Positions 938-35,759 are shown, counted from the first letter of the stretch. The stretch is DNA of 39,122 nucleotides from an uncultured Candidatus Saccharibacteria bacterium (GCA_964357805.1 CAYHMS010000001.1:17176-56297); one strand, 5' to 3'. Notes: a model not told the origin generated them from the letters alone. Numbers and translations are program-made.

Positions 938-944
938 TCGCCAC

Positions 945-7324: not shown

Positions 7325-7328
7325 AGGT

Positions 7329-21550: not shown

Positions 21551-21556
21551 TCAGAC

Positions 21557-21562
21557 ACTATA
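21557..21562 (-). promoter_or_regulatory. -10 box TATAGT, 6 nt upstream of ATG 21550
   Basis: Read directly from the sequence. Confidence 0.4.
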
Positions 21563-21569
21563 CGTGATG

Positions 21570-21836
21570 TTAGCCGCGATGTAACCAATTCCAAATTTTC
21601 GCGAAAGCATAACCGAGAACATAACCAACGACTGTGGCAATGACAATAACCGTGACGGCCGCGGAAAAGTCAAACGCTTTGATGACTACCGGCGCACTGA
21701 CCATATGCGCCCATAAACTGAAGTTGACGAGCGCCTGCGCCCAGCCGAGCGCGACGAGGATAGCCCAGACGAGATGCAAGCCGCCTACAAGCGTACCGAA
21801 TGCGAGACCGGTCTTCCTTGGATTAAGGTGATTCAT
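21570..21836 (-). CDS. Small membrane protein (3 TM), unknown function
   Basis: 88-aa hydrophobic ORF lying between nuclease P1 and the helicase. Confidence 0.6.
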   Translation of the reverse strand: MNHLNPRKTGLAFGTLVGGLHLVWAILVALGWAQALVNFSLWAHMVSAPVVIKAFDFSAAVTVIVIATVVGYVLGYAFAKIWNWLHRG

Positions 21837-21918: not shown

Positions 21919-21955
21919 ATCCAAAACAAGGGACGACCGTCTCTTATTGTGGATA
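21919..21955 (-). repeat. 37-bp element, copy A (plus strand ATCCAAAACAAGGGACGACCGTCTCTTATTGTGGATA)
   Basis: 30-31 of 37 identical to copies B and C. Lies 6 nt beyond the stop codon of nuclease P1. Confidence 0.85.
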
Positions 21956-21961
21956 GTCGTT

Positions 21962-22804
21962 TCAGATTAGGTACGCGTCTTGGCCATAGCCGGCGACGCC
22001 GAGGTACTCTGCTTCGCCCTTTAATATCGCTTCGTACGGTTGACAGGCAAAACAGCTCGCGGGGCCGCGCGGGCACTCATACGCGCGCCGTTCGCGAGCG
22101 TCTTTCACACGCCGCGCGAGCGCGAGAACCTTCTCTCTCGCTTGGGCCGCATCCGGCAGAGCCATCTCGGTTGGAGCATCATTCTTCTCGAGATACCAAT
22201 ACGCCGCGCCGCTCACGCGGCGCTTCTGGAGTTCGTTTAGCAATAGGAGATATATCGGCAACTGAAGCGAGTCCTCGCCTTCCTCATTCTTCCCCGTCTT
22301 GAAATCAATAACGCGAATGCTGTCATCTGTCTCAACATACTCCAGCCAATCAATGAGCCCGCAGAGAATAATATTGTCCTCTTCAGAAAGATAGAAATTC
22401 GGGGGCATGTTGTTCTCGGATTCTTTGAGACGAATTGTTTTCTTCGCAATCGGTCCGGGATTCTGCATTACCCGCTCAATCATGGCGCGGCCGCGCGCTT
22501 TCGCGGCCGCCTCTTCCTCGCCACTTGTAAATCCGCCTTTCTTGCCGGACGCATTCGCCGCCCACTCCTTCTCAAAATCGGCGAGCAGGTCGCAGCGCAG
22601 GCGCTCCTCGACCGGTAGTGTCCCCAACGCTTCAAGCGTCGCATGCACTGCGCTCCCGAGCGAGAGCGCAGGATTCACAATCGTTATTTTCCGTCCGGTG
22701 TCCGGATTCTTATACACATTGTGCAAGTAATAGAGGCGCGGGCACTTCAAGAAGTCCCCAATTGACGAATGCGACACCCACACCGCATTGTATTTATCCG
22801 CCAT
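21962..22804 (-). CDS. PD-(D/E)XK nuclease, Cas4/AddB-like, with a four-Cys cluster (called P1 here)
   Basis: SHSSIGDFLKCP, GSAVHATLE and VIDFKTGK (D..K core) motifs, plus C-terminal CPRGPASCFAC cysteines. Start set at MADKYN. Confidence 0.8.
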   Translation of the reverse strand: MADKYNAVWVSHSSIGDFLKCPRLYYLHNVYKNPDTGRKITIVNPALSLGSAVHATLEALGTLPVEERLRCDLLADFEKEWAANASGKKGGFTSGEEEAAAKARGRAMIERVMQNPGPIAKKTIRLKESENNMPPNFYLSEEDNIILCGLIDWLEYVETDDSIRVIDFKTGKNEEGEDSLQLPIYLLLLNELQKRRVSGAAYWYLEKNDAPTEMALPDAAQAREKVLALARRVKDARERRAYECPRGPASCFACQPYEAILKGEAEYLGVAGYGQDAYLI

Positions 22805-22810
22805 GCTCCT

Positions 22811-22816
22811 ATCATA
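22811..22816 (-). promoter_or_regulatory. -10 box TATGAT, 6 nt upstream of ATG 22804
   Basis: Read directly from the sequence. Confidence 0.4.
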
Positions 22817-22852
22817 TCGCACGAACTCATAGAACCGCAGATATCACCCACT

Positions 22853-22967
22853 ATCCACGATTTATGCCGACCGGTACATAGTGTGGATACTATCCAAAAT
22901 AGAGGACGACCGCATCATATTGTGGATGGTATCCAAGACTTGTCGCTATAGCGACAAGTTGTGGATA
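22853..22967 (-). repeat. Three abutting 37-bp elements (22853-22889, 22892-22928, 22931-22967) in exact 39-bp phase
   Basis: Each unit starts ATCCA(A/C) and ends GTGTGGAT or TTGTGGAT. The middle unit is copy B. The third unit carries the 22-bp perfect palindrome ACTTGTCGCTATAGCGACAAGT (22938-22959). Confidence 0.85.
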
Positions 22968-23102
22968 GCGCCACACAACAGCCGCCCCAGCGTGGCGTAC
23001 CTACGGGCTATATTCCTACAAGGTCGAACCTTGTAATAAGTAAAACTTTATATTTTCTATCTTTCACTTCCACTTCCCGAAAGGTGACGCCTTGTGGATT
23101 TA

Positions 23103-24872
23103 CTACTTGATCTCCCATATTTTTTTGTAAGCCTCTTCTCCTATTTCTTTAGCGCGATGAAGTATTATTTTATTACTCCATATTGGAGCGTATCGTTCAT
23201 ATTTCTTTATGAAATCTCGCACATATGAAAGATTTTGTATCTCATTTTCAAGTTCGCCCTTTAATTTCTTAAGTTTTTTCTCTGGACTTAAATTACCTAA
23301 GCTTGAGTTTGTTCTAAAACTGATTGCAAGTAAATTACCAATATTATCAACGACTTCCAACACTTTTGGATTAGAAATTTCAACATCTGGCTTTTGAGGA
23401 TAAAAGTGCTCAATATTGTGATTCTTTCTTGAAACCTTCTGATCTGGATTAAATATATGGACTCTTTGTCCAGGATGTAAACCGAAGTTATTTATCCGAT
23501 CAAAAATATAAGAAATAAGAGGGATGTATTCCGAAGAATAATTAATATCAATGAAGCGAGATTCGAACTCTTTTTCTGTGGCAAGTCTTTTTTTCAATTC
23601 CCTAACGAGTTCATTTGTTGTATCTTCAAAGTTTTTAGATGCCTCATACTTTTTACAAAAATCAGCATAAAGTTTTTCCACTTCATTACCAATTCTTGTG
23701 CAAACTGCACTATTTATAAAATGATACTTTTCTAGAACTTCAAAGAATCCGATTAGTTTTTTCGACTTATTCTGATCAGTACCTCCTCCATTCTTTATAA
23801 AACAACGTATCGCAGCATAAATTAATGGGTAGATCTGCGAGATTTTGAATAGTCTCAATCCCTCAAGGCTTAAATGGATTTTTTCATATTTATTTTGATC
23901 TCTGGCGATCACACTACAGCCGAGGGACTCGAAGTAGTTCTTTATTGCACTTTCATCCCCTGTTCGAATAGTACTGTAATAACGAGAGAACTCATCCAAT
24001 TCTTTTACCAATTCCTCTGCTCCAATATCTGTTCCATATTTTCTAATTTTCTTATAAAGATCAGATTTTGCGACATATCCATTTCTGGCGACATAGAAAT
24101 ATTTAAACATTCTTAGAACCGTACCATCTGAATTCTCAATAATTTGTGGCCAAATTTCTTCAAGACCATCGACACCGGCTGCAAAAAGATAGTTCTTAAG
24201 TAAATCAGAGGCCTCAAGATCAACTCCACGCGCATTTGTTCTTTCAAAAATACTAAACGCTTCTACTTCATCCTGAATATCAATACGAACGGCGTAGGTT
24301 TCATAAATAGCTTCTAAAAAACTACTCAATTTTTGATGATCAAAATCTTCAATTTCTTTGTAAAAATAGTCATAGATTGGCTTTATTCTTCTAACCTGCA
24401 GTTTCACATGTTTGTTTCCGATTTTAAGAGGAAATTCTCCATTCCATTCATATTTTGAAATCTCCTCAAATACATCTTTGATTGATTCTGACGCGATTAA
24501 CCTTGGTCCGAGAGATTCGGCTGTAGCTGGATTCTCGAACATTATTTTTTGTTGAATCATTTCTGCAACGCGTCTCGTTGCTTTCTTCTTTTTCGCTAAA
24601 TTTCTGCAAGCAATAAGTAATAGGAGCAAAGTCGTCAGTCTTTGTTGACCATCAACTATTTTTATTTTTTTATTGCGTTCTTCAGAAATGTCAAAAATTA
24701 GAGTGCCTAAAAAAAGATTGCCGGTTTCGGATTCAATATAACCCTTCAAATCTTCAAAGAAATCTAGAGCTTCGGTTTTACCCCATGTATATTCTCGTTG
24801 ATATTTTGGTACGGCAAATTGAATAGAGGAATTCAGAATATCCGCAATCTTTGCTGGGTTTGGGTTTATCAT
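23103..24872 (-). CDS. DUF262 + DUF1524 protein (GmrSD-like type IV restriction enzyme family)
   Basis: N-terminal FAVPKYQREYTW and IVDGQQRLTT (ParB-like NTPase) motifs. C-terminal NIEHFYPQ...GNLLAIS...NSSLGN (His-Me finger). Low GC. Confidence 0.85.
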   Translation of the reverse strand: MINPNPAKIADILNSSIQFAVPKYQREYTWGKTEALDFFEDLKGYIESETGNLFLGTLIFDISEERNKKIKIVDGQQRLTTLLLLLIACRNLAKKKKATRRVAEMIQQKIMFENPATAESLGPRLIASESIKDVFEEISKYEWNGEFPLKIGNKHVKLQVRRIKPIYDYFYKEIEDFDHQKLSSFLEAIYETYAVRIDIQDEVEAFSIFERTNARGVDLEASDLLKNYLFAAGVDGLEEIWPQIIENSDGTVLRMFKYFYVARNGYVAKSDLYKKIRKYGTDIGAEELVKELDEFSRYYSTIRTGDESAIKNYFESLGCSVIARDQNKYEKIHLSLEGLRLFKISQIYPLIYAAIRCFIKNGGGTDQNKSKKLIGFFEVLEKYHFINSAVCTRIGNEVEKLYADFCKKYEASKNFEDTTNELVRELKKRLATEKEFESRFIDINYSSEYIPLISYIFDRINNFGLHPGQRVHIFNPDQKVSRKNHNIEHFYPQKPDVEISNPKVLEVVDNIGNLLAISFRTNSSLGNLSPEKKLKKLKGELENEIQNLSYVRDFIKKYERYAPIWSNKIILHRAKEIGEEAYKKIWEIK

Positions 24873-25021
24873 AAGCAGTTTTGCTTGTCCCCACCATTAG
24901 ATCATGTGGCGATCTGAGGCACAAGCCCTTATGCGCTGTGATCCACAGAAACAAGTTGTGTATAAAAAAGGATCTGGGATAATTTTTTATAATTACTACT
25001 CTGAGCCATGAACCAAACATT

Positions 25022-25288
25022 ATGACTGAAATAAAGATTTATACTGCGACTATTGAAGTCGTTTTTGAAGCTTACGAAAAGGAGAATCCTCGTTTAATTG
25101 CCAAACACATGGCTGAATATTTCAACTTTATGAGAGGAGCTAACTTGTACTCTTCTGGTGAACTCATCTCAGAACTCGGCTCGGTTAGACTTGTCCGGAG
25201 CGGCGGAGGGAGAACCATTTCCAAAGTATTAGGAGGAGGGAGATGGCAGAGAAGACTTGGCCGGCGAGGCGCGCGGCATCGTCTCTAG
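25022..25288 (+). CDS. Doubtful small ORF divergent from the GmrSD-like gene
   Basis: The first 55 or so codons look protein-like. The Gly/Arg-rich tail overlaps the 3' end of the convergent membrane-protein gene. Confidence 0.3.
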   Translation: MTEIKIYTATIEVVFEAYEKENPRLIAKHMAEYFNFMRGANLYSSGELISELGSVRLVRSGGGRTISKVLGGGRWQRRLGRRGARHRL

Positions 25289-25598
25289 AGAATGGAAGAA
25301 GCGAGGTGTCAACTACAGGTGTCATTGCGATAAAAATAATTGCGAGTGGTATAGCCCATACTACGAGCTTTAGCCATGATTTAAATATTTCTCGTGAGAC
25401 GAACGCAAGGATAATGACGATTGGTAGTAAGAAAAGAGAAAAATTATATAGTGGGTTTGTAAAATATGGATAGATTTGATGAACCCAAGTCGCGTAGCAG
25501 TATCCATTCGAATAAATACACCAATAACTGATCGGTGCGAAACTAAATCCTAGTAGAGTGAACAGCGCCGGAATAAATTGGATAATTTTTGTTTTCAT
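25185..25598 (-). CDS. Membrane protein (4 TM), unknown function
   Basis: 137-aa hydrophobic ORF starting 6 nt after the stop of the large hydrolase gene. Confidence 0.6.
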   Translation of the reverse strand: MKTKIIQFIPALFTLLGFSFAPISYWCIYSNGYCYATWVHQIYPYFTNPLYNFSLFLLPIVIILAFVSREIFKSWLKLVVWAIPLAIIFIAMTPVVDTSLLPFSRDDAARLAGQVFSAISLLLILWKWFSLRRSGQV

Positions 25599-25604
25599 TT
25601 TGAA

Positions 25605-28600
25605 TTAAAAGAATTTCTTCAGCGCGAACCAGAATCCATAGAGACCATTATAGACTGCTCTGCCCATCCTTGCGAAGAGCGGCTGTTGAGAAGCGGCGTT
25701 ATATACCGATGCGGTTTGCGAGAAATTAGGCATCGTGTTCGCGACGGTCGCAGGCGGTTGCAGACGCTTAGGAACGCTCTGTGTCGCTACCGGAGGCCGC
25801 AACGGGGGAGTGACCGCGATAGGAATCATTGTCGCGGGAGTATTTGTGACGGCTGGTTCAGTGATAGTCGTTTGCGCATCTACTGTGGTTACGACTGGCG
25901 CCGGAATAGCGGCGAGAGTTGACGCTCTACTGCCCCTTCTGCTGCCGCCGCTTCTGGGGCTCGCCTGTGCCGGCAATGCCGACTCCGGAGTTGGCTCGGA
26001 TTCTGAAGCAGGCGCCGGCCCTTCGACAGGCTCAGGGTCTTCGAGCGGCTCATAATTCACGGTCTCTCCGACCGTTGGAATGAGCGTGATTATATCCGTA
26101 CCATCGCCGTTTACGTCAACCGTGAGCGCTGAAGCGGTATCTATGCCGTCTGAAATAGTGAGACCAACCAGAGTGTTCGCCGTTGTTGGGACACTCGCAA
26201 TAGTACTAGAAGCGGTGATAACGCCGCCCGAGGATTCTTGTATATCGAGCGAGAAGGTCCCGCTTTCTTGCCCATGGAGCGTAAGTTCATACTGGCTGCC
26301 TTGAGGAACGGTAATATATTTCACCTCGCCGAACTCGCCGTAAACGGAGTCGGGAATGTCTTGGGTGATGGAGTTGTCCTCGGCGAGACCGGTAACATTC
26401 CCCGAAGCGTCAGTGAGTTGGAGCGTGAGCGGTGAGTGGAGGAAGAAGGTGAGTTTTTTATTTTCAGTATTTGGCGACGGCTGGCTTGTAGAAATATAAA
26501 TCGGGAGTGTGCTTGTACTGTTTTTAATAATGTTTTTTATAAAGTCCCGAAGCGACGAAATTTCCAGAATATTCTTATGGCTATATTTGATTGGAGCACC
26601 TGGTACATTATTAATCTTGGCTAAATCAACCCAATACCTTTTTACGCTCGTGCTGGATGCCATCATGAGAGCACTCGGGACGGGGACAACACCGTCGCCG
26701 TCTTCGGTAAAGAGTGGGCGATACGCGCGCATCGGCTCAAGGGCTGTGAGCGCGTTCACGGGCGGAGGCGTGTAGAAGTCAATCCCCGCGACGGTGTCGG
26801 CTCCCCAACCGGCAATCTGGCTCACTTCAATACCCTCTGGCGGCGCCCAGACATCGAGCGCGGTGTGCTGACTGTTGGCATAGTCCACAAGATTTGAATT
26901 AAGAGAGGAAGCAAGCAGGAAGTTATCAAGCTCTGTTGTGTTGTTTATGGCGGCGCCGTAGGCGCCGATTTCTTTGGCGTAGGCGTCGCCCGCGAAGGAC
27001 CCGACGGGGTGGGCCGAATCGCTTGCCGTGCTCTCCAGATAATCTTCTGACGGGAGCAGGTGATACGCCATCGGCGAATTCTGGGCAAGTTCGCGCGCGA
27101 CTGCGCTGTGCAGAATGGGGATACCCCATTTAGAAATACCCTGGTCAAGACCGTAGAGGAGAGCGCCGATGGCAACAGGCGCGCCGCTCTGCGGCGCGCC
27201 GACCATGATTATTTTATCCACTAACAACTTGGCGGTTGAACCGCCAAGTTTGTTCAGGAGCGCTTTAGCGATGAGACCGCCGTTGCTGTGCGCGACGATG
27301 GTCACCTTCTTCGTTTTTGAGCTCCCCGCGAGTGCGCGAAGCGTCTGCTCGATGTAGGGTGTGCTCGTCGCCTCTGTATAAAATATCTTGCCGTCTCGTT
27401 CGCTACCTTTGTTCAGCAAGTCACTAAAAGAAAGTCGCCAGTCATACGCGACCGGCTTCCAGTCATTGATGGTGCCGTTGGTCTCGAGCCCATTCATCTC
27501 ATCAATCAGTGATTTGTATATATTGTTGCCTTTAACCGAGTCAATAATGTCGTCCGTCTTCGCATAAATATCACTGCACACGCCCTTGCCTGTTGAATCA
27601 AGAAATAGCCTTTTCACTTTATCGTCGCCTGCGCCGCGCAAGATTTTAATAAGCGATTCGCCAACAGGGTCCCAAAGCTTCTCTTCAGCCGTCTTCCCGC
27701 ATCCGAGCCCTTCATATAATCGACTTCCCTCGATGCCGGGCAGGAAGAGGACGTTCGAGGCGCACGCTCCGGGAACTGCACAAGGGTCGGGCGGAGGAGG
27801 TTTCGGAACAGGCACGGTCAAACTTGTACCAGCAGTATTCCCCGCTTCGTCATAGACGGTGATACGAACACGAAATGATACTGCTCGCGCTATTTGTCCA
27901 GGGTCATCAGACTCGGATAACTTGATGGGTACATTTGTAAATGTACCGTCAGTCGAAGAAGCAAGCGCATCGTCGATGGGTCGCGGATTATACGCAATCA
28001 TGTCTCCGGTCAGGCGGGCATACCACGAAATCGAGTTCCCGTTTGCATCGAATAGGCCTTCAAAAAGACCCGATACTTTTAATGCGCTTCCCGTTCCGCT
28101 AGCAGACCCGCTCAAATACATATAATCGCCAGCGCGTGGCGAAGTAGTAGAGGTAGAAAAGGTTATGTTTGAGAGCGAGATTGTTGGTAGAGCGTTGTCG
28201 ACCAGAATACTCGTAGTCGCCATCGCGGTATTGCCGATCGCGTTCGTCGCGGTAATCGGAATTTCATAGAGACCATCTGGAGTGTCAGTGCTGACCGATA
28301 AAGGACCGAAGTTGTAGAAATAGGCCTGATAATACTGTGCGCCATATCCCGCCCATTGACCACTTGTCGTAGCAGACTGGGAAAGTCCGAACTGTGCAAG
28401 ATTAGCAGAGACCTTTGGCGGGGTGCCGAAATTGCTATGCACAAACACTTGGAGCGTCGGGGTATTACCGACTCGAACCGCTGTCTGTAATGAAGGATAT
28501 TGTGTGACCAACATTCCGATAAGACGTGGGCCATAAATGAATGGGTCGGGAACACTCGCATGTCCAACGAGCGGCATTCCCATAATTAGCAACATCATTA

Positions 28601-28652: not shown

Positions 28653-28658
28653 TGAAAA

Positions 28659-28664
28659 GGTATA
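28659..28664 (-). promoter_or_regulatory. -10-like box TATACC, 6 nt upstream of ATG 28652
   Basis: Read directly from the sequence; overlaps the plus-strand TATACT. Confidence 0.35.
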
Positions 28665-28666
28665 CT
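28661..28666 (+). promoter_or_regulatory. -10 box TATACT, 7 nt upstream of ATG 28674
   Basis: Read directly from the sequence. Confidence 0.45.
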
Positions 28667-28673
28667 GTACACA

Positions 28674-30365
28674 ATGAATGTTGATGATTTGAAAACCGCG
28701 CTTGCGGGCGCGATGCACGGAGAGGTGAGCGATGATGCGGAGACGCTCGCGAAGATGAGTCGCGATACATCGCTTTTTACGCGGACGCCGGAGCTGGTGG
28801 TGTATCCCGTAGATGCGGAGGATGTAAGTGCGGTAGTGAGAGAGATTGCCCGCGCCCGCTCCGCGGGCGCGGAGGTCTCGCTCGCGGCGCGTGCCGCCGG
28901 AACCGATATGTCGGGCGGCCCGCTCACCACCAGCGTCGTCGTGGATTTCATGAAGCACATGAATCACATCGGAGAGGTGGCAGTGAGCAGGAGGCAGGAG
29001 GCAGGAGGATATGCAATAACCGAGCCGGGGGTGTTCTATAGGGATTTTGAGAAGGCGACGATGGGAAAGGGCCTCATACTTCCCTCGTATCCCGCCAGCC
29101 GCGAAATTTGTGCGATGGGCGGCATCGTGTCCAATAATTCCGGCGGCGAGCGCACGCTCAAATACGGTAAAACGGAAAAATATGTGGAGGAACTTGACGT
29201 CGTGCTCTCTGACGGCTCGTTAGCGACGTTCAAGTCGCTAACTCCGAGCGAAGTCGAGGAGCGGAAAAAACTAAATACGCTCGAAGGGAAAATCTATCGC
29301 GAGATGGACGCGCTTCTCACCGAGCATGCCGGCCTCATTGAAGGGCACCGGCCGAAAGTCTCAAAAAATTCAGCCGGCTACGCGCTCTGGAGTATTATCG
29401 ACCATGAGACTGGCACCTTCAACCTTGCGAAGCTCGTCTGCGGCTCTCAAGGAACGCTCGCGCTCTGGACAAAAGCGAAACTTGGGCTTGTAAAACCGAA
29501 AGAACACCGCGCGATGCTCGTCGCCTTTCTCTATGACGTGAACATTCTCCCCGAGCTCGTGAAGCGCGTGCTGCTCCAAAGACCAGAATCATTTGAGAGC
29601 TACGACGACCACACCTTCACGCTTGCGGTGAAATTCCTCTCCCAGATGCTCTCACAAATGGGGCTCATTAAAGCCGCTCGGCTCGGCATTGATTTTATCC
29701 CTGAAGCGGCGATGGTCGCCACCGGCGGCGTGCCCAAGATGATTCTGATGGCGGAGTTCGCCGAGGACACGATTGAAGCCGCCGACGCTAAAGCTCTGGC
29801 GGCCAAGGAGGCTCTTACGGATTTGCACGTGCAGACCAAAATAGAAAAAAATGAAAAGGAGTCGGAGAAGTATTGGATTGTCCGGCGCGAGAGCTTCAAT
29901 CTCCTGCGTAAGAATTTGCACGGCCTCGTTTCTTCACCGTTTATTGACGACTTCGTCGTGCCGCCTTCCTGTTATCCGGAATTCCTGCCGAAATTGAACG
30001 CTCTTCTGGACGAATATAAGTCCAATATGATTTACACAGTCGCAGGCCACATCGGTGACGGTAATATCCACATTATTCCGCTCATGGACCTCACTAAAGA
30101 AGAAAATCGGCAGGTCATTCTTGACCTCGCGCCGAAGGTCTACGAACTCGTTATCAAGGAAGGCGGTACCACGACCGGCGAGCACAACGATGGCATCATC
30201 CGCACGCCGTATCTGCCGATGCTCTTCGGCGCGGAGATGGTCGCGCTCTTTGAGAAGACGAAAAAGATTTTTGACTCGCTTAATATCTTCAACCCCGGCA
30301 AAAAAGTCGGCGGGACCTTCGCCGACATCAAGCGCGACCTCATCAGGCCTGCGGAAAAAACTTAA
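28674..30365 (+). CDS. FAD-linked oxidase (GlcD / D-lactate dehydrogenase-like)
   Basis: PCMH-type FAD-binding N-terminus with AARAAGTDMSGGPL and GGIVSNNSGGERTLKYG, plus an FAD-oxidase C-terminal domain. Confidence 0.85.
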   Translation: MNVDDLKTALAGAMHGEVSDDAETLAKMSRDTSLFTRTPELVVYPVDAEDVSAVVREIARARSAGAEVSLAARAAGTDMSGGPLTTSVVVDFMKHMNHIGEVAVSRRQEAGGYAITEPGVFYRDFEKATMGKGLILPSYPASREICAMGGIVSNNSGGERTLKYGKTEKYVEELDVVLSDGSLATFKSLTPSEVEERKKLNTLEGKIYREMDALLTEHAGLIEGHRPKVSKNSAGYALWSIIDHETGTFNLAKLVCGSQGTLALWTKAKLGLVKPKEHRAMLVAFLYDVNILPELVKRVLLQRPESFESYDDHTFTLAVKFLSQMLSQMGLIKAARLGIDFIPEAAMVATGGVPKMILMAEFAEDTIEAADAKALAAKEALTDLHVQTKIEKNEKESEKYWIVRRESFNLLRKNLHGLVSSPFIDDFVVPPSCYPEFLPKLNALLDEYKSNMIYTVAGHIGDGNIHIIPLMDLTKEENRQVILDLAPKVYELVIKEGGTTTGEHNDGIIRTPYLPMLFGAEMVALFEKTKKIFDSLNIFNPGKKVGGTFADIKRDLIRPAEKT

Positions 30366-30367
30366 CC

Positions 30368-30376
30368 TGCTATACT
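30368..30376 (+). promoter_or_regulatory. Extended -10 box TGcTATACT, 6 nt upstream of ATG 30383
   Basis: Read directly from the sequence. Confidence 0.5.
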
Positions 30377-30382
30377 GGAGAT

Positions 30383-30475
30383 ATGAAACGCGCACTGGCT
30401 GTCATTATCGTCGTCTTGCTTGCGCTCGGCATGATCGGTACCCTCCTGCCCGGTTTTGTCTCGAGCGGTTTTTAG
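30383..30475 (+). CDS. Candidate 30-aa membrane peptide MKRALAVIIVVLLALGMIGTLLPGFVSSGF
   Basis: Not in the supplied track because it is too short. It has a perfect leaderless promoter geometry and a single TM helix. Confidence 0.5.
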   Translation: MKRALAVIIVVLLALGMIGTLLPGFVSSGF

Positions 30476-30572
30476 TTGTCCCCACCCATTGCGCTCTCCG
30501 GGCATTTCTGGCATACTTTCTCCAACTCGCAGAGTATTAGTTTCGGCGAGGTTAATTAGTTACATCCAATAC

Positions 30573-30944
30573 ATGGACACAGCAGCATCAGGTTCGGTTC
30601 AGGGGAACAAGCTTTACGTAGGCGGCATTCCCTATCGCTCGACGGAAGACGATATGAAAAAAGCCTTTAGCGAGGCTGGCACAGTCGTATCTGCGAGCAT
30701 CATTAGCGACCGTATGACGGGTCGCTCACGCGGCTTCGGCTTCGTCGAGATGGCCACCGAGGCGGAAGCTCAGGCGGCTATCGACCGTTGGGATGGCAAG
30801 GAGATGGACGGGCGCACGCTCTCGGTCTCTTTCGCCCGCCCGCAGGGTGACCGTCCTCCGCGCCGCGAAGGCGGTTTCGGAGGCGGTGACCGCGGCGGCT
30901 ACGGCGGTGGCAACGGCGGCGGTTACGGTCGCGGCGGATATTAA
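30573..30944 (+). CDS. RRM-domain RNA-binding protein with a Gly/Arg-rich tail
   Basis: RNP2 KLYVGGI and RNP1 RGFGFVEM motifs; C-terminal GGFGGGDRGGYGGGNGGGYGRGGY. Confidence 0.85.
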   Translation: MDTAASGSVQGNKLYVGGIPYRSTEDDMKKAFSEAGTVVSASIISDRMTGRSRGFGFVEMATEAEAQAAIDRWDGKEMDGRTLSVSFARPQGDRPPRREGGFGGGDRGGYGGGNGGGYGRGGY

Positions 30945-30960
30945 TTCTTCGCCGGAATAC

Positions 30961-30992
30961 AACAACGCCCGCGCTCCCGCGCGGGCGTTGTT
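30961..30992 (+). terminator. 14-bp perfect hairpin AACAACGCCCGCGC-tccc-GCGCGGGCGTTGTT with no clear U-tract
   Basis: Starts 17 nt after the RRM gene stop, directly before the next promoter box. Confidence 0.5.
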
Positions 30993-30997
30993 GTTGG

Positions 30998-31006
30998 TGG
31001 TATAGT
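30998..31006 (+). promoter_or_regulatory. Extended -10 box TGgTATAGT, 7 nt upstream of ATG 31014
   Basis: Read directly from the sequence. Confidence 0.5.
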
Positions 31007-31013
31007 TTCTCTC

Positions 31014-31292
31014 ATGACCGACCAACCGCTCCAACCGTTCTCGCCGCCTGCCGCCCTGCTTTCGTATCTGCCGAATGGATTCTCGATGGGCGTCGCTCTG
31101 ACCTGGGTACTCTACGCGGTCTTCGCCTTCTGGGCGATTTACACAGTCGTCGCAATGTATCACTGGCTCAAGTATTCCCACGCGTCGTGGCTCGCCTTCC
31201 CCGCAATGGCGGCGCATCTCGTCATATCGTTCGCGCTCATATCCTATACGCTCTCCGGTAATGCATTCTTCCTCACCGCCTATTTGCCATGA
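31014..31292 (+). CDS. Small membrane protein (2-3 TM), unknown function
   Basis: 92-aa hydrophobic ORF with the leaderless promoter signature. Confidence 0.6.
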   Translation: MTDQPLQPFSPPAALLSYLPNGFSMGVALTWVLYAVFAFWAIYTVVAMYHWLKYSHASWLAFPAMAAHLVISFALISYTLSGNAFFLTAYLP

Positions 31293-31299
31293 ACACCGT

Positions 31300-31839
31300 A
31301 TGAAAGAATTCGAACTTGAGCCGGGCGAACATGTCGTGAAGGAGGTGCGCAAGCACTGGCTGCTTTTCATCGGCGAGCTTTTGCCATACGCAATAATTGT
31401 CATCATCCCTTTCGCTCTCCCAAAGCTCCTCCCACTCGCTCCGCCTCTTGCGCCATACGTAACATACTTTGACTATCACACGACATTTGGGCGCGTCGTG
31501 CTTGGCGTCTGGTTGCTCATTACATGGACCGGCGCATGGGGAGCTTTCACCAAATATTTCCTCAACGCGTGGATTCTCACAAGCCAACGCATCGTTACCA
31601 TAAAACAACGCGGATTCTTTAAGCGCGAGGTATCCAGTTTGCTTCTGCCGCGCGTGCAAGACGTCACGACCAATGTTACCGGAATTCTGTTCTCACTGCT
31701 CGGCATCGGCGATATAAAGGTTCAGAGCGCAGGCGCTGATGTGGAATTCACGATGCGCGGTATCCCTCATCCCGAAGTGATGCGCGATCTCATCATTAAA
31801 TACATTCCTGAAGAGAAATCCGAAAACACCGGGGTATAA
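31300..31839 (+). CDS. Bacterial PH domain (bPH_2 / YdbS-YdbT-like) membrane protein
   Basis: LEPGEHVVKEVRKHW, two TM helices, then RIVTIKQRGFFKREVSSLLLPRVQDV...IGDIKVQSAG. Confidence 0.75.
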   Translation: MKEFELEPGEHVVKEVRKHWLLFIGELLPYAIIVIIPFALPKLLPLAPPLAPYVTYFDYHTTFGRVVLGVWLLITWTGAWGAFTKYFLNAWILTSQRIVTIKQRGFFKREVSSLLLPRVQDVTTNVTGILFSLLGIGDIKVQSAGADVEFTMRGIPHPEVMRDLIIKYIPEEKSENTGV

Positions 31840-31843
31840 AATA

Positions 31844-31852
31844 TGATAAAAT
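31844..31852 (+). promoter_or_regulatory. Extended -10 box TGaTAAAAT, 6 nt upstream of ATG 31859
   Basis: Read directly from the sequence. Confidence 0.5.
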
Positions 31853-31858
31853 CGGGAA

Positions 31859-33094
31859 ATGCCTGAGCCGCTTTCGACCGACCCCTATAAGGGCGTCCGC
31901 GACTTCTATCCCGCTGATTGGGCATTGATGGAGGCGATGTTCGCGCGCATCCGCGAAGTGCTTACTCGCTGGGGTTATGAGGAATACAACGCCTCTCCAC
32001 TCGAGCGCGCCGAGCTCTACGAAGCGAAGACTTCTGAAGAAATTGTGAACGAGCAGACCTACACCTTCATGGATCGCGGCGACCGCAAGGTGACGCTCCG
32101 CCCCGAGATGACGCCGACTCTCGCGCGAATGGTTGCGGGTAAACGTCGCGAGCTCGTCTTCCCGCTTCGCTGGTTCTCCATCGGCAACCGCTTCCGCTAC
32201 GAACGACCGCAGAAAGGCCGTCTGCGTGAGTTCTACCAAGTGGATATCGACCTCGTCGGGCTTCCCGAAGGCGAAGCGGATATAGAAATTATCCGAATTG
32301 CGTCGGAAATACTCAAAGCATTCGGCGCAAAAGAAAGCGATTTCGTCATCCGCGTCAATTCACGTTCTCTCTTAAACACCGCGTGCACAGCGGCGGGACT
32401 CAAGGGTGATGATATTCGGCAGTACCTGCGCCTTCTGGACAAGAAATCAAAAATGACGCCCGAGGCTTTCGCGGCGGCGCGAAATACCATTTCAGCAACA
32501 GACCCCCTTTCTCTTATTGAACCGAAAGCGATAGAAACGTTTGTTGCGACGCTTAAAGCGCACGGCGTCGGGAACGCCGTTTTTGACCCCGGTGTCACGC
32601 GCGGCTTTGACTACTACACCGGCATGGTGTTTGAGGTTTTTGACACGAATCCGGCGAATCCGCGCGCGATGTTTGGAGGCGGACGGTACGATGGCTTGAT
32701 GGCGCTCTTCGGCGGCGAACAAATTCCCGCCGTTGGCTTCGCGCTCGGCGAAGTTACCCTCGGTAATTTTCTAGAAACGCATACCCTCGTGCCGACTCCA
32801 AGCGCGCAGGCGCCGCAACTCTATATCGGCACACCGAATAAGGGCGACATTCCCGCCGCGCAGGCGTTCGCCGACACCTTGCGCAAGGCGGGCGGGCGCA
32901 TTTTCGTCAATCTCACCGACCGAGCGCTTGGCGAGCAGATTAAGGACGCGGTAAAGCGCGGCATCCCGCTCTTTATCGCGTACGGCGCAGACGAGGTTGC
33001 GAATAACACCGTTCGTATGAAGGTTCTTGCGACCGGTGAAGAAATGGGTCTTCCGGTATCCGAGCTTCCGATGCGTCTTCGCTCTGGAACCTAA
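31859..33094 (+). CDS. hisS: Histidine--tRNA ligase
   Basis: KGVRDFYP, LRPEMTPTLARMVA, RWFSIGNRFRYERPQKGRLREFYQ and GGGRYDGL motifs, plus a C-terminal anticodon-binding domain. Confidence 0.9.
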   Translation: MPEPLSTDPYKGVRDFYPADWALMEAMFARIREVLTRWGYEEYNASPLERAELYEAKTSEEIVNEQTYTFMDRGDRKVTLRPEMTPTLARMVAGKRRELVFPLRWFSIGNRFRYERPQKGRLREFYQVDIDLVGLPEGEADIEIIRIASEILKAFGAKESDFVIRVNSRSLLNTACTAAGLKGDDIRQYLRLLDKKSKMTPEAFAAARNTISATDPLSLIEPKAIETFVATLKAHGVGNAVFDPGVTRGFDYYTGMVFEVFDTNPANPRAMFGGGRYDGLMALFGGEQIPAVGFALGEVTLGNFLETHTLVPTPSAQAPQLYIGTPNKGDIPAAQAFADTLRKAGGRIFVNLTDRALGEQIKDAVKRGIPLFIAYGADEVANNTVRMKVLATGEEMGLPVSELPMRLRSGT

Positions 33095-33098
33095 CGTT

Positions 33099-33689
33099 AT
33101 GCGTGCCATCACCTTCGACATTGAATCCATCTCCGATTCCTTCGTGCGCGGTCACATCGATGTGAACGAACAGGAACTTACCGTCGTCGCCATTCACGAT
33201 TCACTCACGGGCGAATATTCTTCGTACTTCAAAGAAGAGCTTTCGAAACTTTGGCCTATCCTCGAACATGCTGACCTTCTCATCGGTTTCAATTCTGACG
33301 CATTCGATATTCCGCTTCTGAATCGCTATTACCCGGGCGACCTTTCCCATTTGCGCTCGCTTGATCTCTTGAGTGAAGTGCAGAAGGCGCTCGGCCGGCG
33401 CATCCGGCTCCAAGCGCTCGCCGAAGCGACTCTCGGCAGGGGGAAATTAGGCGATGGCATGAAAGCCGGCGAATGGTGGAAGGAAGGTAAAAAGGACAAG
33501 GTAACTGAATATTGCATTGAGGACGTCCGCCTCACGCGCGAGCTCTACGACTACGCGCTCGCGCACGGCATACTCAAATATAAGGACCTAATCGATATTC
33601 GCGATATCAAGCTCGATACCTCGCTCTGGCTCGCTCCTGCGAGCGGGACGCACGTCATCCCCGCGATGACCCACGCACTTCCTTTATGA
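33099..33689 (+). CDS. DEDD-type 3'-5' exonuclease (RNase H-like fold)
   Basis: ITFDIES (Exo I), GFNSDAFDIPLL (Exo II) and YCIEDVRLT (Exo III). Confidence 0.7.
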   Translation: MRAITFDIESISDSFVRGHIDVNEQELTVVAIHDSLTGEYSSYFKEELSKLWPILEHADLLIGFNSDAFDIPLLNRYYPGDLSHLRSLDLLSEVQKALGRRIRLQALAEATLGRGKLGDGMKAGEWWKEGKKDKVTEYCIEDVRLTRELYDYALAHGILKYKDLIDIRDIKLDTSLWLAPASGTHVIPAMTHALPL

Positions 33690-34360
33690 AATCTTCTCTC
33701 GCTGTTCCTCTCGCGATTGTCATCGGTGGGGTCATCGTCGCGGGGGCGATATATTTATCGGTAGCAAAGTCCGTATTGGTCGGCTCCGATGCCGACAATC
33801 CTTCCCTCGTGCGGCCAGTGAATACCTCCGACCACATACTCGGCAATCCGGCCGCGAGAGTGATGATAGTTGAGTATTCGGACTTCGATTGCGAATTTTG
33901 CAAGGACTATCACGAGACGCTGCACCAAATCATCGCGAACGTCGGCACCAATGGCGACGTTGCGTGGGTCTTCCGCGAGTTTCCGCTCCTTGAAATCCAT
34001 CCAAATGCACTTGCTCACGCGCGCGCTGCCGAATGTGTCGCGCAGGTCGCGGGCAATGACGCATTCTGGAAATTTTCTGATTCCCTCTTTCAGAATCAAC
34101 CGGTTAACTCCGCACGTTACGGAGAACTCGCAAAGGCCGCAGGCATTCCAAATGACAACGCTTTCGCAACCTGTTATGCAAACGCTTCTGCAACACTTGA
34201 TGCGCGCATTCTCGCAGACCGCCAGAATGCGCTCGATATGGGCGCGCTTGGCACACCGTATGCAATCCTCCTCACCACCGGCAAACCTCCCGTCCTGATG
34301 AAAGGCGCGTATCCCTACGACGTCGTGAAGCAGCTCATCGACGAAGCACTGGCGCGTTAG
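33686..34360 (+). CDS. DsbA-family thiol:disulfide oxidoreductase
   Basis: N-terminal TM anchor and a thioredoxin fold with YSDFDCEFCKDYH (CxxC). Confidence 0.85.
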   Translation: MKSSLAVPLAIVIGGVIVAGAIYLSVAKSVLVGSDADNPSLVRPVNTSDHILGNPAARVMIVEYSDFDCEFCKDYHETLHQIIANVGTNGDVAWVFREFPLLEIHPNALAHARAAECVAQVAGNDAFWKFSDSLFQNQPVNSARYGELAKAAGIPNDNAFATCYANASATLDARILADRQNALDMGALGTPYAILLTTGKPPVLMKGAYPYDVVKQLIDEALAR

Positions 34361-35202
34361 TCGTCCACCAACTCCAGACGATACATATCAAAAGAATTAT
34401 CGCCCTCAAACATATCAGACGGGTTCGGGAGGTACACACGTCGGCGCGCAATCTCATCGGTCGCATCGTTGATGAGACGATGAAAGACCGCAAAGTCCTC
34501 TTTGCAATTGCGAAAGTCAATTTCATATCGCCGCATTTGCGAGCTCCCGTCGGCATTCTTCGTCTTCTTGCATTCGTATACGATGAAGCGCCGCACCGGC
34601 TTCTCGAACATCTCCCGCACCGTGTAGTAGTTGAAGATGGCCTGAATGATGAAAAGTGATTTCGCGGCGCCTCCCTTGCTAAATGCCGCGACGAACTTAT
34701 GGTCTACGATATCTACCGCACCTTTTTCAATCTTTGATTCAACTACTAAATCTGAAATCGCTTTGATGGGGAGCGGGAGTCCTTCTACTTCTACGATGCC
34801 CTTCACCTCGACGCCAAGCACGGTATGCTTCGGCGGCCGCGCGAGATAATAGCCGATAGCGCGCAGATATTCCTGTTCCATTGCTTTTCTTTTTTCCCTC
34901 TTCGCTTTGCGCGTTGTGGCTTTGCCGAAATTAATTTCAAAATCCCCGACGTCGCGCATATATTCAAGACCTTTCTGTATCGCAATATCCTTGGGCGCAC
35001 CGCTGTAAAAGTGTTCTAGCGCCCGATGCCCCGCGCTCCCAACCACTGCCGCCGGCGTCGTGGGCGTATCATATATCTCTTCCACATAGCGCTTGTACCA
35101 CGCCAGTGGATTCCTCAAAAACGCCATCAAGCTCGAATGACTCCAGTGCTTAATCGGCAGCTTTTTTTTCTTTTCTGCACCTGCTTTTTTCTCCCGCTTC
35201 AT
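34357..35202 (-). CDS. PD-(D/E)XK nuclease (RecB/Cas4-like, no Cys cluster; called P2 here)
   Basis: WSHSSLMAFLRNPLAWY, GSAGHRALEHF and DIVDHKF motifs. Start set at MKREKK with TATACT 6 nt upstream. Confidence 0.75.
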   Translation of the reverse strand: MKREKKAGAEKKKKLPIKHWSHSSLMAFLRNPLAWYKRYVEEIYDTPTTPAAVVGSAGHRALEHFYSGAPKDIAIQKGLEYMRDVGDFEINFGKATTRKAKREKRKAMEQEYLRAIGYYLARPPKHTVLGVEVKGIVEVEGLPLPIKAISDLVVESKIEKGAVDIVDHKFVAAFSKGGAAKSLFIIQAIFNYYTVREMFEKPVRRFIVYECKKTKNADGSSQMRRYEIDFRNCKEDFAVFHRLINDATDEIARRRVYLPNPSDMFEGDNSFDMYRLELVDD

Positions 35203-35208
35203 GGTCGC

Positions 35209-35214
35209 AGTATA
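35209..35214 (-). promoter_or_regulatory. -10 box TATACT, 6 nt upstream of ATG 35202
   Basis: Read directly from the sequence. Confidence 0.45.
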
Positions 35215-35241
35215 TCTGAATCGTGCAGTAATTTCGCTCCT

Positions 35242-35278
35242 ATCCAAGATAAGAGACGACCGCACCTTATTGTGGATA
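35242..35278 (-). repeat. 37-bp element, copy C (plus strand ATCCAAGATAAGAGACGACCGCACCTTATTGTGGATA)
   Basis: 31 of 37 identical to copy A and 30 of 37 to copy B. Its proximal end is 27 nt upstream of the P2 -10 box. Confidence 0.85.
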
Positions 35279-35376
35279 CCTTGCTAATTTATGGGGATGG
35301 TGTATAAATAGCGGCAGGTTGCAGTACACGGTGGATTCCCCGCCAGTCATTCACGTTCACAAAATGGAGGCATGGC

Positions 35377-35697: not shown

Positions 35698-35710
35698 CCA
35701 GCATTAGCAA

Positions 35711-35748: not shown

Positions 35749-35759
35749 GTACGAAACAA

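What the first reader, a model, noticed from the sequence alone, without database searches (positions are those of the whole stretch)
21919..35278. Five same-orientation copies of a 37-bp element (ATCCAA-N23-TTGTGGAT), all beside DNA-processing genes
Copies A (21919-21955), B (22892-22928) and C (35242-35278) are 30-31 of 37 identical. Invariant positions are ATCCAA, the central ACGACCG, and TATTGTGGAT. Two further copies, 22853-22889 (26/37 to B) and 22931-22967 (conserved ends, palindromic core), have exactly the same 37-nt frame. The ends are inverted repeats of each other, and TGTGGATA matches 8 of 9 positions of the DnaA box TGTGGATAA. The placement is non-random. Three copies lie upstream of Cas4-like nuclease P1. 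One lies 6 nt after the P1 stop, ahead of the small-TM/Pif1-helicase genes. One lies 27 nt upstream of the -10 box of the second PD-(D/E)XK nuclease, P2. No coding frame explains the conservation. Three hypotheses fit: an operator of an undescribed DNA-repair or replication-stress regulon (possibly DnaA acting as a regulator); protein-binding iterons; or recombination sites bracketing P1.
Basis: partly seen in the sequence, partly recalled or inferred. Interest (0 to 1): 0.75.

Follow-up and report, generated by a model that had tools for sequence, protein, structure and literature searches.

The report
Palindromic operators of mini-PaaX regulators
The five repeats are real: they are 36-38-bp palindromic DNA sites that, in this group of tiny groundwater bacteria (Patescibacteria), always flank the gene of a small PaaX/Cas2-like DNA-binding protein and also precede DNA-recombination and other genes, so they are most likely binding sites of an undescribed family of gene regulators, not DnaA boxes.

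Summary
All five copies are at the stated coordinates, in intergenic DNA, and far above chance. The unit is a ~38-bp quasi-palindrome: TATCCA(C/A)AA, variable but self-complementary inner arms, a CG-AC-CG (or CTATAG) centre, and TT(G/T)TGGATA.

Scans of public genomes and metagenomes found it almost only in Patescibacteria. It lies upstream of orthologues of P1, P2 and the small-TM/Pif1 operon. It also lies upstream of dprA, recG, dnaE, rnhB, a truncated lexA and some housekeeping genes.

Its commonest neighbour is a ~195-aa protein with a hydrophobic N-terminal helix, a winged helix and a Cas2-like PaaX_M domain. Databases often name it "Cas2". That gene is bracketed by two sites: 31 of 34 upstream, 31 of 31 downstream, and 3 of 3 in genes chosen without regard to the motif.

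Distant homologues and a second paralogue in one genome carry the same palindrome-gene-palindrome layout with different outer blocks. E. coli PaaX binds TGATTC-N27-GAATCA, which is the same geometry.

Best reading: operators of a Patescibacteria-specific mini-PaaX regulator family. The DnaA, iteron and RNA readings are not supported. The regulator gene is not in this window. Direction of regulation, signal and membrane topology are unknown.

The parts
21919..21955 (.). Copy A. Site of the GACG-centre type, 6 nt after the P1 stop and upstream of the small-TM/Pif1 unit.
   Evidence: It is the best hairpin among the CGACCG-type copies (-18.7 kcal/mol on the gene-sense strand, z -4.3). A site lies directly upstream of the small-TM homologue in L024.
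22853..22889 (.). Copy D. P1-proximal site of the ACCGGTCGG-centre type.
   Evidence: The orthologous site upstream of the P1 orthologue in L009 differs at 2 of 36 positions. The same centre type flanks one regulator clade.
22892..22928 (.). Copy B. Middle site of the tandem triplet, with chimeric arms (TGCG on one side, CGTC on the other).
   Evidence: Its hairpin is weak (-8.1 kcal/mol, z -0.7). The same chimeric type occurs in L040 and L014.
22931..22967 (.). Copy E. Distal site of the CTATAG-centre variant, with a 22-bp perfect inner palindrome.
   Evidence: The variant recurs in L024:6242, L037:6535, L040:5087 and L158:9941/10600. CTATAG centres were counted 14 times.
35242..35278 (.). 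Copy C. Site 27 nt upstream of the P2 -10 box, in the divergent region between P2 and a 106-aa ORF.
   Evidence: P2 orthologues carry a site 4-28 nt upstream of their -10 box. In relatives the regulator gene sits between rpoD and P2.
21962..22804 (-). P1, a PD-(D/E)XK (Cas4-like) nuclease and presumed target gene.
   Evidence: Pfam PDDEXK_1 at E 6.8e-26. Weak Cas4 matches. A TATGAT box at 22811-22816 lies 6 nt before the ATG.
19865..21836 (-). Small-TM gene (21570-21836) and Pif1-type helicase gene (19865-21550), downstream of copy A.
   Evidence: Pfam PIF1 at E 7.6e-34. Pif1 also has its own promoter-like GTTACA-17-TATAGT ending 6 nt before its ATG.
34357..35202 (-). P2, a second PD-(D/E)XK nuclease and presumed target gene.
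   Evidence: Pfam PDDEXK_1 at E 2.5e-16. It is called as a 281-aa gene on the source contig. A TATACT box at 35209-35214 lies 6 nt before the ATG.

Best explanation
The elements are double-stranded DNA operators for a Patescibacteria-specific 'mini-PaaX' regulator. This is a ~195-aa protein with a hydrophobic N-terminal helix, a winged helix-turn-helix and a Cas2-like PaaX_M domain, which is the dimerisation module in PaaX.

Inferred mechanism:
- A homodimer lies along the ~38-bp palindrome.
- Its two winged helices read the outer blocks (TATCCACAA and its inverted copy), which are 26 bp apart.
- The Cas2-like core sits over the conserved CG-NN-CG centre.

The protein autoregulates through a site that ends 21-26 nt before its own start codon, and a second site follows its stop codon. 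Through further sites it controls a small regulon.

In this lineage the regulon includes P1, the small-TM/Pif1 unit and P2, which are the genes in this window. It also includes dprA, recG, dnaE, rnhB and a truncated lexA, together with some housekeeping genes.

Three different centre types stand in tandem before P1. This suggests input from several paralogous regulators.

Shown here: the sites, their conservation, their pairing with the regulator gene, and the fold of the protein. Inferred: actual binding, repression rather than activation, and the signal.
For: 1. Specificity.
- An 18-base pattern scanned over 596 Gb of genomes gave 40 loci. Twenty-six carry a Patescibacteria-group label; one more (L022, labelled only 'bacterium') and three from one MAG labelled Bdellovibrionales carry or accompany the regulator gene.
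- The other ten are single hits, most of them inside long ORFs. About 17 chance hits were expected.

2. Cognate gene.
- The commonest neighbour of the sites is the PaaX_M protein: 26 of 163 neighbour proteins.
- Of the full-length regulator genes in the loci, 31 of 34 have a site within 60 nt upstream and 31 of 31 have one within 60 nt after the stop.
- Three regulators picked only for contig length all show both sites.

3. Co-variation of protein and site.
- Homologues from Niyogibacteria, Moranbacteria and other Patescibacteria are flanked by 32-38-bp palindromes. Their outer blocks differ, and the centre is CG-NN-CG in most copies (CTATCG in one L165 copy).
- One 693-kb contig has two paralogues with different recognition helices (FNYQAKSALGRL and NMYRRITQSISRL). 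Each is bracketed by its own palindrome type, ATCCACAA... or GTATCAAT....
- Within the ATCCACAA group, the centre type tracks the regulator clade. It is shared by the upstream and downstream copy of each gene.

4. Protein fold.
- Pfam PF20803 matches at E 1e-18 to 1e-20.
- In the AlphaFold2 model the Cas2-like domain is confident (pLDDT above 90; whole model 75.5).
- The best PDB matches are PaaX 8A39, Rv0674 and 3L09, followed by MarR/PadR winged-helix factors and Cas2.

5. Geometry.
- E. coli PaaX is reported to bind TGATTC-N27-GAATCA and to repress its own promoter (PMC9493321).
- The site here is TATCCA-N26-TGGATA.

6. Promoter context.
- In several lineages the upstream palindrome contains or abuts the -10 box of the regulator gene: TGCTATAAT in L165, TGGTAAAAT in L163, TATAAT in the second L158 paralogue.
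- In some P2 orthologues the site ends 4 nt before the -10 box.
- Most genes here look leaderless. The sites upstream of P1 and P2 are therefore not transcribed with those genes.
Against: - No regulator gene lies in the 39-kb window (tblastn). It is also missing at two places where relatives carry it.
- Binding has not been shown.
- The distance from site to -10 box ranges from 4 nt to about 100 nt. One simple repression geometry does not fit all targets.
- Some sites lie between convergent genes (L026, L035, L162, L164), where no promoter is expected.
- The inner arms covary more than a plain operator requires: 82.6% of cells paired against 68.3% in shuffles, 0 of 500 shuffles as high.
- The protein has a conserved, strongly hydrophobic 19-residue segment (median Kyte-Doolittle hydropathy score 2.23) with equal flanking charge. 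If the C-terminal part faces outward, the protein cannot be a transcription factor.
- The neighbour genes are functionally mixed.
Confidence: 0.7

Rival explanations
1. Hairpin or cruciform element. The palindrome acts as a stem-loop in RNA or single-stranded DNA, for example as a terminator, an mRNA 3'-end stabiliser or an extruded cruciform. Any protein recognises the structure rather than the duplex.
For: - The inner arms covary strongly.
- Many copies are perfect 16-17-bp inverted repeats with different inner sequences (L024, L032, L034, L164).
- Copies A and E fold well (z -4.3 and -7).
- Sites occur right after stop codons and between convergent genes.
Against: - Copies B, C and D fold little better than shuffled sequence (z -0.7 to -3.6).
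- Conserved sites upstream of the regulator gene pair at only about 11 of 17 positions, yet keep their sequence.
- The excess of G.T over A.C mismatches is weak (144 against 94), so no strand is clearly the folded one.
- No T-run follows the sites.
- The leaderless promoters lie downstream of the sites upstream of P1 and P2.
- No Rfam family matches.
- The inner arms fall into discrete classes that track regulator clades. Protein readout or templated repair of quasi-palindromes would explain this.
Confidence: 0.08
2. Recombination or mobility sites. The palindrome-gene-palindrome unit is a cassette, and the Cas2-like domain is an active nuclease that cuts at the palindrome centres. Single sites such as copy C would be scars or landing sites.
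For: - The regulator gene is always bracketed by two like sites about 650 bp apart.
- The family keeps the Cas2 hallmark residues (FDI Asp, QxSVW) that PaaX itself lacks.
- The regulator is absent from the window at a syntenic place where one site remains.
- Copies B and C have chimeric arms.
Against: - No transposase or recombinase is linked to the sites.
- The position of the regulator gene is syntenic among relatives with 70-80% protein identity.
- The chimeric site types are themselves conserved across genomes (L014, L040).
- Sites stand at defined distances from promoters.
Confidence: 0.06
3. Membrane-anchored DNA receptor or tether. The hydrophobic N-terminal helix anchors the protein in the membrane. 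The sites would then be chromosome-membrane tethering sites or, if the DNA-binding part faces outward, DNA-uptake signals.
For: - The hydrophobic 19-residue segment is conserved across the family.
- Sites are enriched near genome-maintenance genes such as dprA, recG and dnaE. From my own knowledge, this resembles the bias reported for the Neisseria DNA uptake sequence (DUS).
Against: - The density is low, roughly one cluster per 10 kb or less.
- Sites are strictly intergenic and sit next to promoters.
- In several lineages the site overlaps the -10 box of the protein's own gene.
- The homologue PaaX is a cytoplasmic repressor.
Confidence: 0.05
4. DnaA boxes. Paired inverted DnaA boxes let DnaA regulate replication-stress genes.
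For: TATCCACA matches 8 of the 9 positions of TTATCCACA. DnaA is known to regulate genes in other bacteria (established knowledge).
Against: - The position of the first T of the box is C (87), G (65), A (27) or T (6) on the left, and is T in 13 of about 200 on the right.
- About half of the half-sites read ATCCAA rather than ATCCAC.
- DnaA does not explain the fixed N26 frame or the conserved CGACCG centre.
- Related lineages replace the outer block with GCACAC, TACCACA, GTATCAA or TATACG in step with the neighbouring regulator. DnaA boxes, by contrast, are near-universal.
- No dnaA or dnaN gene lies nearby.
Confidence: 0.03
5. Binding site of the truncated LexA-like protein, that is, a non-canonical SOS box.
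For: A 128-aa LexA-like gene lies divergently next to a site in L040, L098 and L130. The target set looks SOS-like.
Against: - Adjacency to a site was seen only in three loci with identical local coordinates.
- The protein lacks the nucleophile serine and most of the S24 domain.
- The sites are more than twice the length of any known LexA box.
- The mini-PaaX gene is linked to the sites far more tightly.
Confidence: 0.02

Closest known systems
PaaX repressor and its operators (phenylacetate catabolon of E. coli and Pseudomonas)
   Same: - The protein combines a winged helix with a Cas2-like central domain (Pfam PF20803, TIGR02277, Foldseek 8A39).
- The operator consists of two inverted 6-bp half-sites far apart: TGATTC-N27-GAATCA against TATCCA-N26-TGGATA.
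- A site lies at the regulator's own promoter.
   Different: - The protein has about 195 aa, against 316 for PaaX.
- It lacks the C-terminal acyl-CoA-sensing domain.
- It has a TM-like N-terminal helix.
- It keeps the Cas2 FDI and QxSVW motifs that PaaX lacks.
- No paa genes are nearby.
- The centre of the site is conserved and the inner arms are symmetric.
- The gene is bracketed by two sites.
- It is restricted to Patescibacteria and occurs as several paralogues per genome.
LexA/SOS and other DNA-damage regulons (PafBC, DdrO)
   Same: A palindromic site lies before the regulator's own gene and before recombination and replication genes (dprA, recG, dnaE, nucleases, a helicase).
   Different: - The protein fold is unrelated.
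- The site is more than twice as long.
- No RecA-dependent cleavage domain is present.
- The targets include housekeeping genes.
- A link to DNA damage has not been shown.
DnaA boxes
   Same: The 8-mer TATCCACA is shared.
   Different: The first T is avoided. The spacing, the inverted orientation and the centre are fixed. No origin context is present.
CRISPR repeats with Cas2 and Cas4
   Same: The repeats are 36-37 bp and partly palindromic. A Cas2-like protein is linked to them, and P1 is Cas4-like.
   Different: - The copies abut, with gaps of 2-3 bp and no spacers.
- No cas1 gene was seen.
- Copies are dispersed at promoters.
- The Cas2-like domain is fused to a winged helix.
REP/BIME extragenic palindromes
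   Same: They are intergenic imperfect palindromes of about 35-40 bp, sometimes in tandem and sometimes at the 3' ends of genes.
   Different: Copy number is low. The sites are tightly linked to one regulator gene. No REP-associated tyrosine transposase (RAYT) was seen. The outer blocks co-vary with the protein.

Membership tests
PaaX-type operator and regulator | Two inverted hexamer half-sites separated by about 27 bp | tested here: met
   TATCCA-N26-TGGATA in all five copies, against TGATTC-N27-GAATCA as reported in PMC9493321.
PaaX-type operator and regulator | The cognate protein has an N-terminal winged helix and a central Cas2-like (PaaX_M) domain | tested here: met
   PF20803 at E 1e-18 to 1e-20. 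TIGR02277 gives a partial match well below its cutoff. The best Foldseek match is 8A39, PaaX.
PaaX-type operator and regulator | A C-terminal effector (phenylacetyl-CoA) domain and linkage to paa genes | tested here: not met
   The protein ends after the Cas2-like domain at about 195 aa. No paa genes occur in any locus. TIGR02277 scores 34.6 bits against a cutoff of 264.
PaaX-type operator and regulator | The protein binds the site and represses transcription | not testable with these tools
   Only positional evidence is available: 31 of 34 regulator genes have a site upstream, and the site overlaps the -10 box in several lineages.
DnaA-box cluster or DnaA-regulated promoter | The 9-mer TTATCCACA, including the first T | tested here: not met
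   The first position is T in 6 of about 200 half-sites on the left and 13 of about 200 on the right. Position 7 is A as often as C.
DnaA-box cluster or DnaA-regulated promoter | The box sequence stays constant across bacteria while the neighbouring genes change | tested here: not met
   The outer blocks differ between lineages and between paralogues in one genome.
LexA SOS box | A 14-16-bp palindrome bound by a self-cleaving LexA encoded nearby | tested here: not met
   The site spans 38 bp. The only LexA-like gene seen is truncated and lacks the nucleophile serine.
CRISPR array | Repeats separated by unique spacers of about 25-40 bp | tested here: not met
   The tandem copies are 39 bp apart start to start, which leaves gaps of 2 bp.
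Structured RNA (Rfam) | A match to a curated covariance model | tested here: not met
   Only a tRNA passed the gathering threshold in the window.
Iterons | Direct repeats next to a replication-initiator gene or an origin | tested here: not met
   The repeats are palindromes. No rep or dnaA gene occurs in the window.
REP/BIME elements | High copy number per genome and an associated REP-associated tyrosine transposase (RAYT) | tested here: inconclusive
   There are five copies in 39 kb, and two per 20 kb around regulator genes. No complete genome could be scanned. No Y1 transposase lies next to any site.

The most novel reading that the evidence does not exclude
The mini-PaaX proteins may not be plain repressors. 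They could be Cas2-derived, membrane-anchored, sequence-specific DNA-handling proteins. Their intact Cas2 acidic motif could cut or synapse the 36-38-bp palindromes that bracket their own genes. The units would then be self-marked cassettes, or uptake or tethering signals. That would be a CRISPR-independent job for a Cas2 fold acting on repeat-sized palindromes.
Probability: 0.1. Interest if true: 0.85.

Novelty: new variant of a known kind. Interest (0 to 1): 0.6.

Why it matters
Very little is known about transcriptional control in Patescibacteria (CPR), and few of them have been grown in culture.

This finding gives a concrete protein-site pair that can be tested:
- The regulator family is large: 1,597 clusters at 50% identity with E at or below 1e-10.
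- Each member is marked by its own pair of operators, so specificity can be read from sequence alone.
- In one lineage the sites connect to dprA, recG, dnaE, nucleases and a helicase. These genes process incoming or damaged DNA, and the local LexA appears non-cleavable.

The result also corrects a common annotation error. These proteins are often labelled 'CRISPR-associated endonuclease Cas2', which inflates counts of CRISPR components in CPR genomes.

Tried and rejected
- Rfam and tRNA scans of the window found only tRNA-Asn.
- RNA hairpin reading: folding is heterogeneous and the strand bias is weak. It is kept only as a minor rival.
- DnaA reading: rejected on flank-base statistics and on lineage-specific outer blocks.
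- Regulator gene in the window: tblastn found none.
- Extending the window: the source contigs, from Hainich groundwater sample H41, are at most 8.6 kb and end at the window edge.
- Literature: searches found no description of the motif or the family. The 2017 paper on the Patescibacteria SOS network is not in the held library, so I could not check it.
- Defence-system models (PADLOC): only weak Cas4 and Cas2 matches and a GmrSD/HEC-06 match.
- Consensus promoter scan: no -35/-10 pair for P1 or P2.
- TATACT-N6-ATG as a regulon signature: rejected, because most genes of the window have a -10 box 6-7 nt before the ATG.
- A pure 'DNA-repair regulon': rejected after annotating more neighbours.

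Full report
**1. The observation**

The five 37-mers are at the stated coordinates and have the stated identities. The frame ATCCA-N26-TGGAT occurs five times without mismatch. Allowing one mismatch gives 8 matches, against 0.89 expected from shuffles.

The window is a chromosomal piece of a Patescibacteria (CPR) genome. It carries a def-fmt fusion, hisS, rpoD, dnaG and a DUF5667 protein. The source is Hainich groundwater.

All five copies are intergenic:
- D, B and E stand in tandem (39-bp period) before the PD-(D/E)XK nuclease P1.
- A lies 6 nt after the P1 stop, ahead of the small-TM/Pif1 genes.
- C lies before the second PD-(D/E)XK nuclease, P2.

Most genes in the window have a -10-like hexamer 6-7 nt before the ATG and no Shine-Dalgarno sequence, so transcripts appear leaderless. 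By that geometry, D ends 36 nt upstream of the P1 -10 box and C ends 27 nt upstream of the P2 -10 box.

**2. Anatomy**

Related copies show that the unit is a ~38-bp quasi-palindrome: (C/G)TATCCA(C/A)AA, then inner arms, then CG-AC-CG, then inner arms, then TT(G/T)TGGATA(G/C).
- The metagenome scan pattern allowed AC, GT, GC or AT at the centre. The loci held 185 AC/GT centres, 7 GC and 4 AT.
- A second conserved variant has a CTATAG centre. Copy E belongs to it.
- The inner arms differ between sites but stay complementary. In 85 sites that differ from each other at four or more positions, 82.6% of cells pair, against 68.3 +/- 0.8% in shuffles (0 of 500 as high) and 30-40% when the partner is slid.

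**3. Distribution**

An 18-base pattern scanned over 596 Gb of species-representative genomes gave 40 loci.
- Twenty-six carry a Patescibacteria-group label (Kaiserbacteria, Paceibacterota and others).
- One more, L022, is labelled only 'bacterium' and carries the regulator gene. Three come from one MAG labelled Bdellovibrionales, and one of those three also carries it.
- The remaining ten are single hits, most of them inside long ORFs. About 17 chance matches were expected.

Only 22 of 229 sites lie deep inside any long stop-free frame, against 63.5% of bases.

Orthologues of P1 (L009, L040), P2 (L011, L034 and others) and the small-TM/Pif1 unit (L024) carry sites at matching places.

**4. 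The linked gene**

The commonest neighbour of the sites is a ~195-aa protein: 26 of 163 neighbour proteins.
- It matches Pfam PaaX_M, the Cas2-like central domain of PaaX, at E 1e-18 to 1e-20.
- PGAP often names it 'CRISPR-associated endonuclease Cas2', and JGI names it 'PaaX'.
- Of the full-length genes in the loci, 31 of 34 have a site within 60 nt upstream, mostly ending 21-26 nt before the ATG. All 31 with room have one within 60 nt after the stop.
- This gives a peak of site-to-site distances at 619-670 bp.

Those loci were chosen by the motif, so I also took three regulators chosen only for contig length. All three have both sites.

**5. Co-variation of protein and site**

Distant homologues (36-55% identity to the CAZIBB01 (L002) query) were fetched from Moranbacteria, Niyogibacteria and other Patescibacteria. 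They too have long palindromes immediately upstream of the gene, and three of the four also immediately downstream. The outer blocks are different and the centre is usually CG-NN-CG:
- ACTACCATATTCCTGACGGCCGTCAGGAATATGGTAGT
- GCACTC-N9-CGGCCG-N9-GAGTGC
- GCACAC-N9-CGGTCG-N9-GTGTGC
- TATACGTATACTACGATCGTAGCATACGTATA

One 693-kb contig holds two paralogues with different recognition helices. One is bracketed by ATCCACAA-type sites and the other by GTATCAATTTTTGTCCTATAGGATATAATTTGATAC-type sites.

Within the ATCCACAA group, the centre type follows the regulator clade and is shared by the two copies flanking each gene. The types are TGCGGTCGCA, GACGGTCGTC, ACCGGTCGGC and GC-TATA-GC.

The window holds three of these types. 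E, B and D before P1 are all different, which suggests several paralogous inputs. These discrete classes also explain much of the arm covariation without invoking a hairpin.

**6. The protein**

The AlphaFold2 model has a mean pLDDT of 75.5, and above 90 in the Cas2-like part. It shows:
- a long N-terminal helix of low confidence;
- a recognition helix with a beta-hairpin wing;
- a linker helix;
- a beta-alpha-beta-beta-alpha-beta domain.

The best Foldseek matches are PaaX of E. coli W (8A39), Rv0674 and a Jannaschia PaaX-like protein. Next come MarR/PadR/ArsR winged-helix factors and Cas2 proteins.

A review reports that E. coli PaaX binds TGATTC-N27-GAATCA and represses its own promoter by steric hindrance (PMC9493321). 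This is the same wide inverted-repeat geometry as TATCCA-N26-TGGATA.

The family differs from PaaX in four ways:
- It has no C-terminal effector domain.
- It keeps the Cas2 FDI and QxSVW motifs that PaaX lacks.
- It has a conserved hydrophobic 19-residue segment (median Kyte-Doolittle hydropathy score 2.23) with equal charge on both flanks, so its membrane topology is open.
- It is large: 1,597 clusters at 50% identity with E at or below 1e-10.

**7. Targets**

Apart from the regulator gene itself, the neighbours include:
- DNA-related: P2-type nucleases, recG, dprA, dnaE, rnhB, P1, the Pif1 units and a truncated LexA-like gene;
- others: prolyl-, seryl-, alanyl- and tyrosyl/tryptophanyl-tRNA synthetases, malic enzyme, an amidase, GrpE, murG, PrsW, pyrF, gap, ribosomal protein S1 and several unknowns.

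About 8 of roughly 25 neighbour families act on DNA. That is an enrichment, not an exclusive theme. Several of them (P2, recG, dnaE, rnhB) are also the direct chromosomal neighbours of regulator genes.

The distance from site to -10 box ranges from 4 nt (some P2 orthologues) to about 100 nt. At the regulator's own gene the site contains or abuts the -10 box in several lineages. Repression is therefore the more likely mode there. The mode at distal sites is open.

**8. Rivals**

- DnaA. The first T of the box is avoided (T in 3-6% of half-sites). The frame and centre are fixed. The outer block changes with the neighbouring regulator. Rejected.
- RNA or DNA hairpin. A and E fold well, but B, C and D do not. 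Conserved sites upstream of the regulator gene are poor palindromes. Strand bias is weak, and Rfam finds nothing. Some sites at 3' ends may still act as structures. Minor rival.
- Cassette or nuclease. This fits the bracketing, the retained Cas2 residues and the missing regulator at a syntenic site in the window. However, no recombinase is linked and synteny is stable.
- Membrane receptor or tether. This is allowed by the hydrophobic helix but disfavoured by the promoter overlap.
- LexA-like protein. The gene lies next to a site in only three loci with identical local coordinates, and the protein is truncated.

**9. Verdict**

The finding is real and is not ordinary. The elements are best explained as operators of a Patescibacteria-specific mini-PaaX regulator family, in which each gene is bracketed by its own operator pair.

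The kind is known: a PaaX-type regulator with a wide palindromic operator. The variant appears undescribed in the literature I could search.

Limits:
- No binding data exist.
- The regulator gene is not in this window.
- The regulon census rests on fragments rather than complete genomes.
- One possibly relevant paper could not be read.

Noticed in passing
window, upstream of most genes (for example 28661, 30371, 21557, 35209, 22811): Most genes have a -10-like hexamer (TATACT, TAAAAT or TATAGT) 6-7 nt before the ATG and no Shine-Dalgarno sequence. Leaderless transcripts seem to be the rule in this lineage.
   Followed up: partly
L040:3109-3495 (-), also L098 and L130: A 128-aa LexA-like protein has the LexA DNA-binding domain but a truncated S24 domain. 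It reads GNNL where LexA has the nucleophile motif GDSM, so it is probably non-cleavable. It lies divergently from a site and from the 164-aa/P1 operon.
   Followed up: partly
window 35279-35759 and 30365-30572: The regulator gene is missing from two places where relatives carry it. One is between rpoD and P2 (L158, L162). The other is next to the RRM-protein gene (L013, L006, L147). A 106-aa membrane-like ORF (35377-35697) sits in the first gap.
   Followed up: partly
window 30573-30950 (+): The real gene here is an RRM-type, glycine-rich RNA-binding protein on the + strand. The longer 226-aa ORF on the - strand (30726-31406) is probably spurious.
   Followed up: no
The palindromic centres would create GGCC or GATC. 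Two sites in one locus have identical arms but a flipped centre.
   Followed up: no
mini-PaaX alignment A1, residues 112-157 of P0001: The family keeps the Cas2 hallmark motifs (WDGxWR, FDIxE with an invariant Asp, QxSVW). E. coli PaaX (LLSEG) and Rv0674 lack them. A catalytic role cannot be excluded.
   Followed up: partly
mini-PaaX residues ~20-40: A hydrophobic 19-residue segment is conserved (median Kyte-Doolittle hydropathy score 2.23), with net flank charges of +3.2 and +3.0. The top hits of the PDB profile search were Kv-channel TM helices. The protein may be membrane-anchored, with undecided topology.
   Followed up: partly
L002:5156-6499, L023, L038 (MAG CAZIBB01, labelled Bdellovibrionales): Five sites in alternating centre orientation lie within 1.3 kb around a regulator gene, and two more lie on other contigs. 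The bin is probably mislabelled, or these are Patescibacteria contigs.
   Followed up: no
window 23103-24872 (-), 5750-8108 (+), 885-2297 (+): A GmrSD/HEC-06-type type IV restriction enzyme lies immediately upstream of the three tandem sites. The window also holds a DNA methylase plus TdeIII restriction enzyme pair and a def-fmt fusion gene.
   Followed up: no
window 23091-23100 and 30065-30072; L040:3541-3549: Lone half-sites occur outside full palindromes: TTGTGGATT and TATCCACA in the window, and a perfect TTATCCACA in L040. Their meaning is unknown.
   Followed up: no
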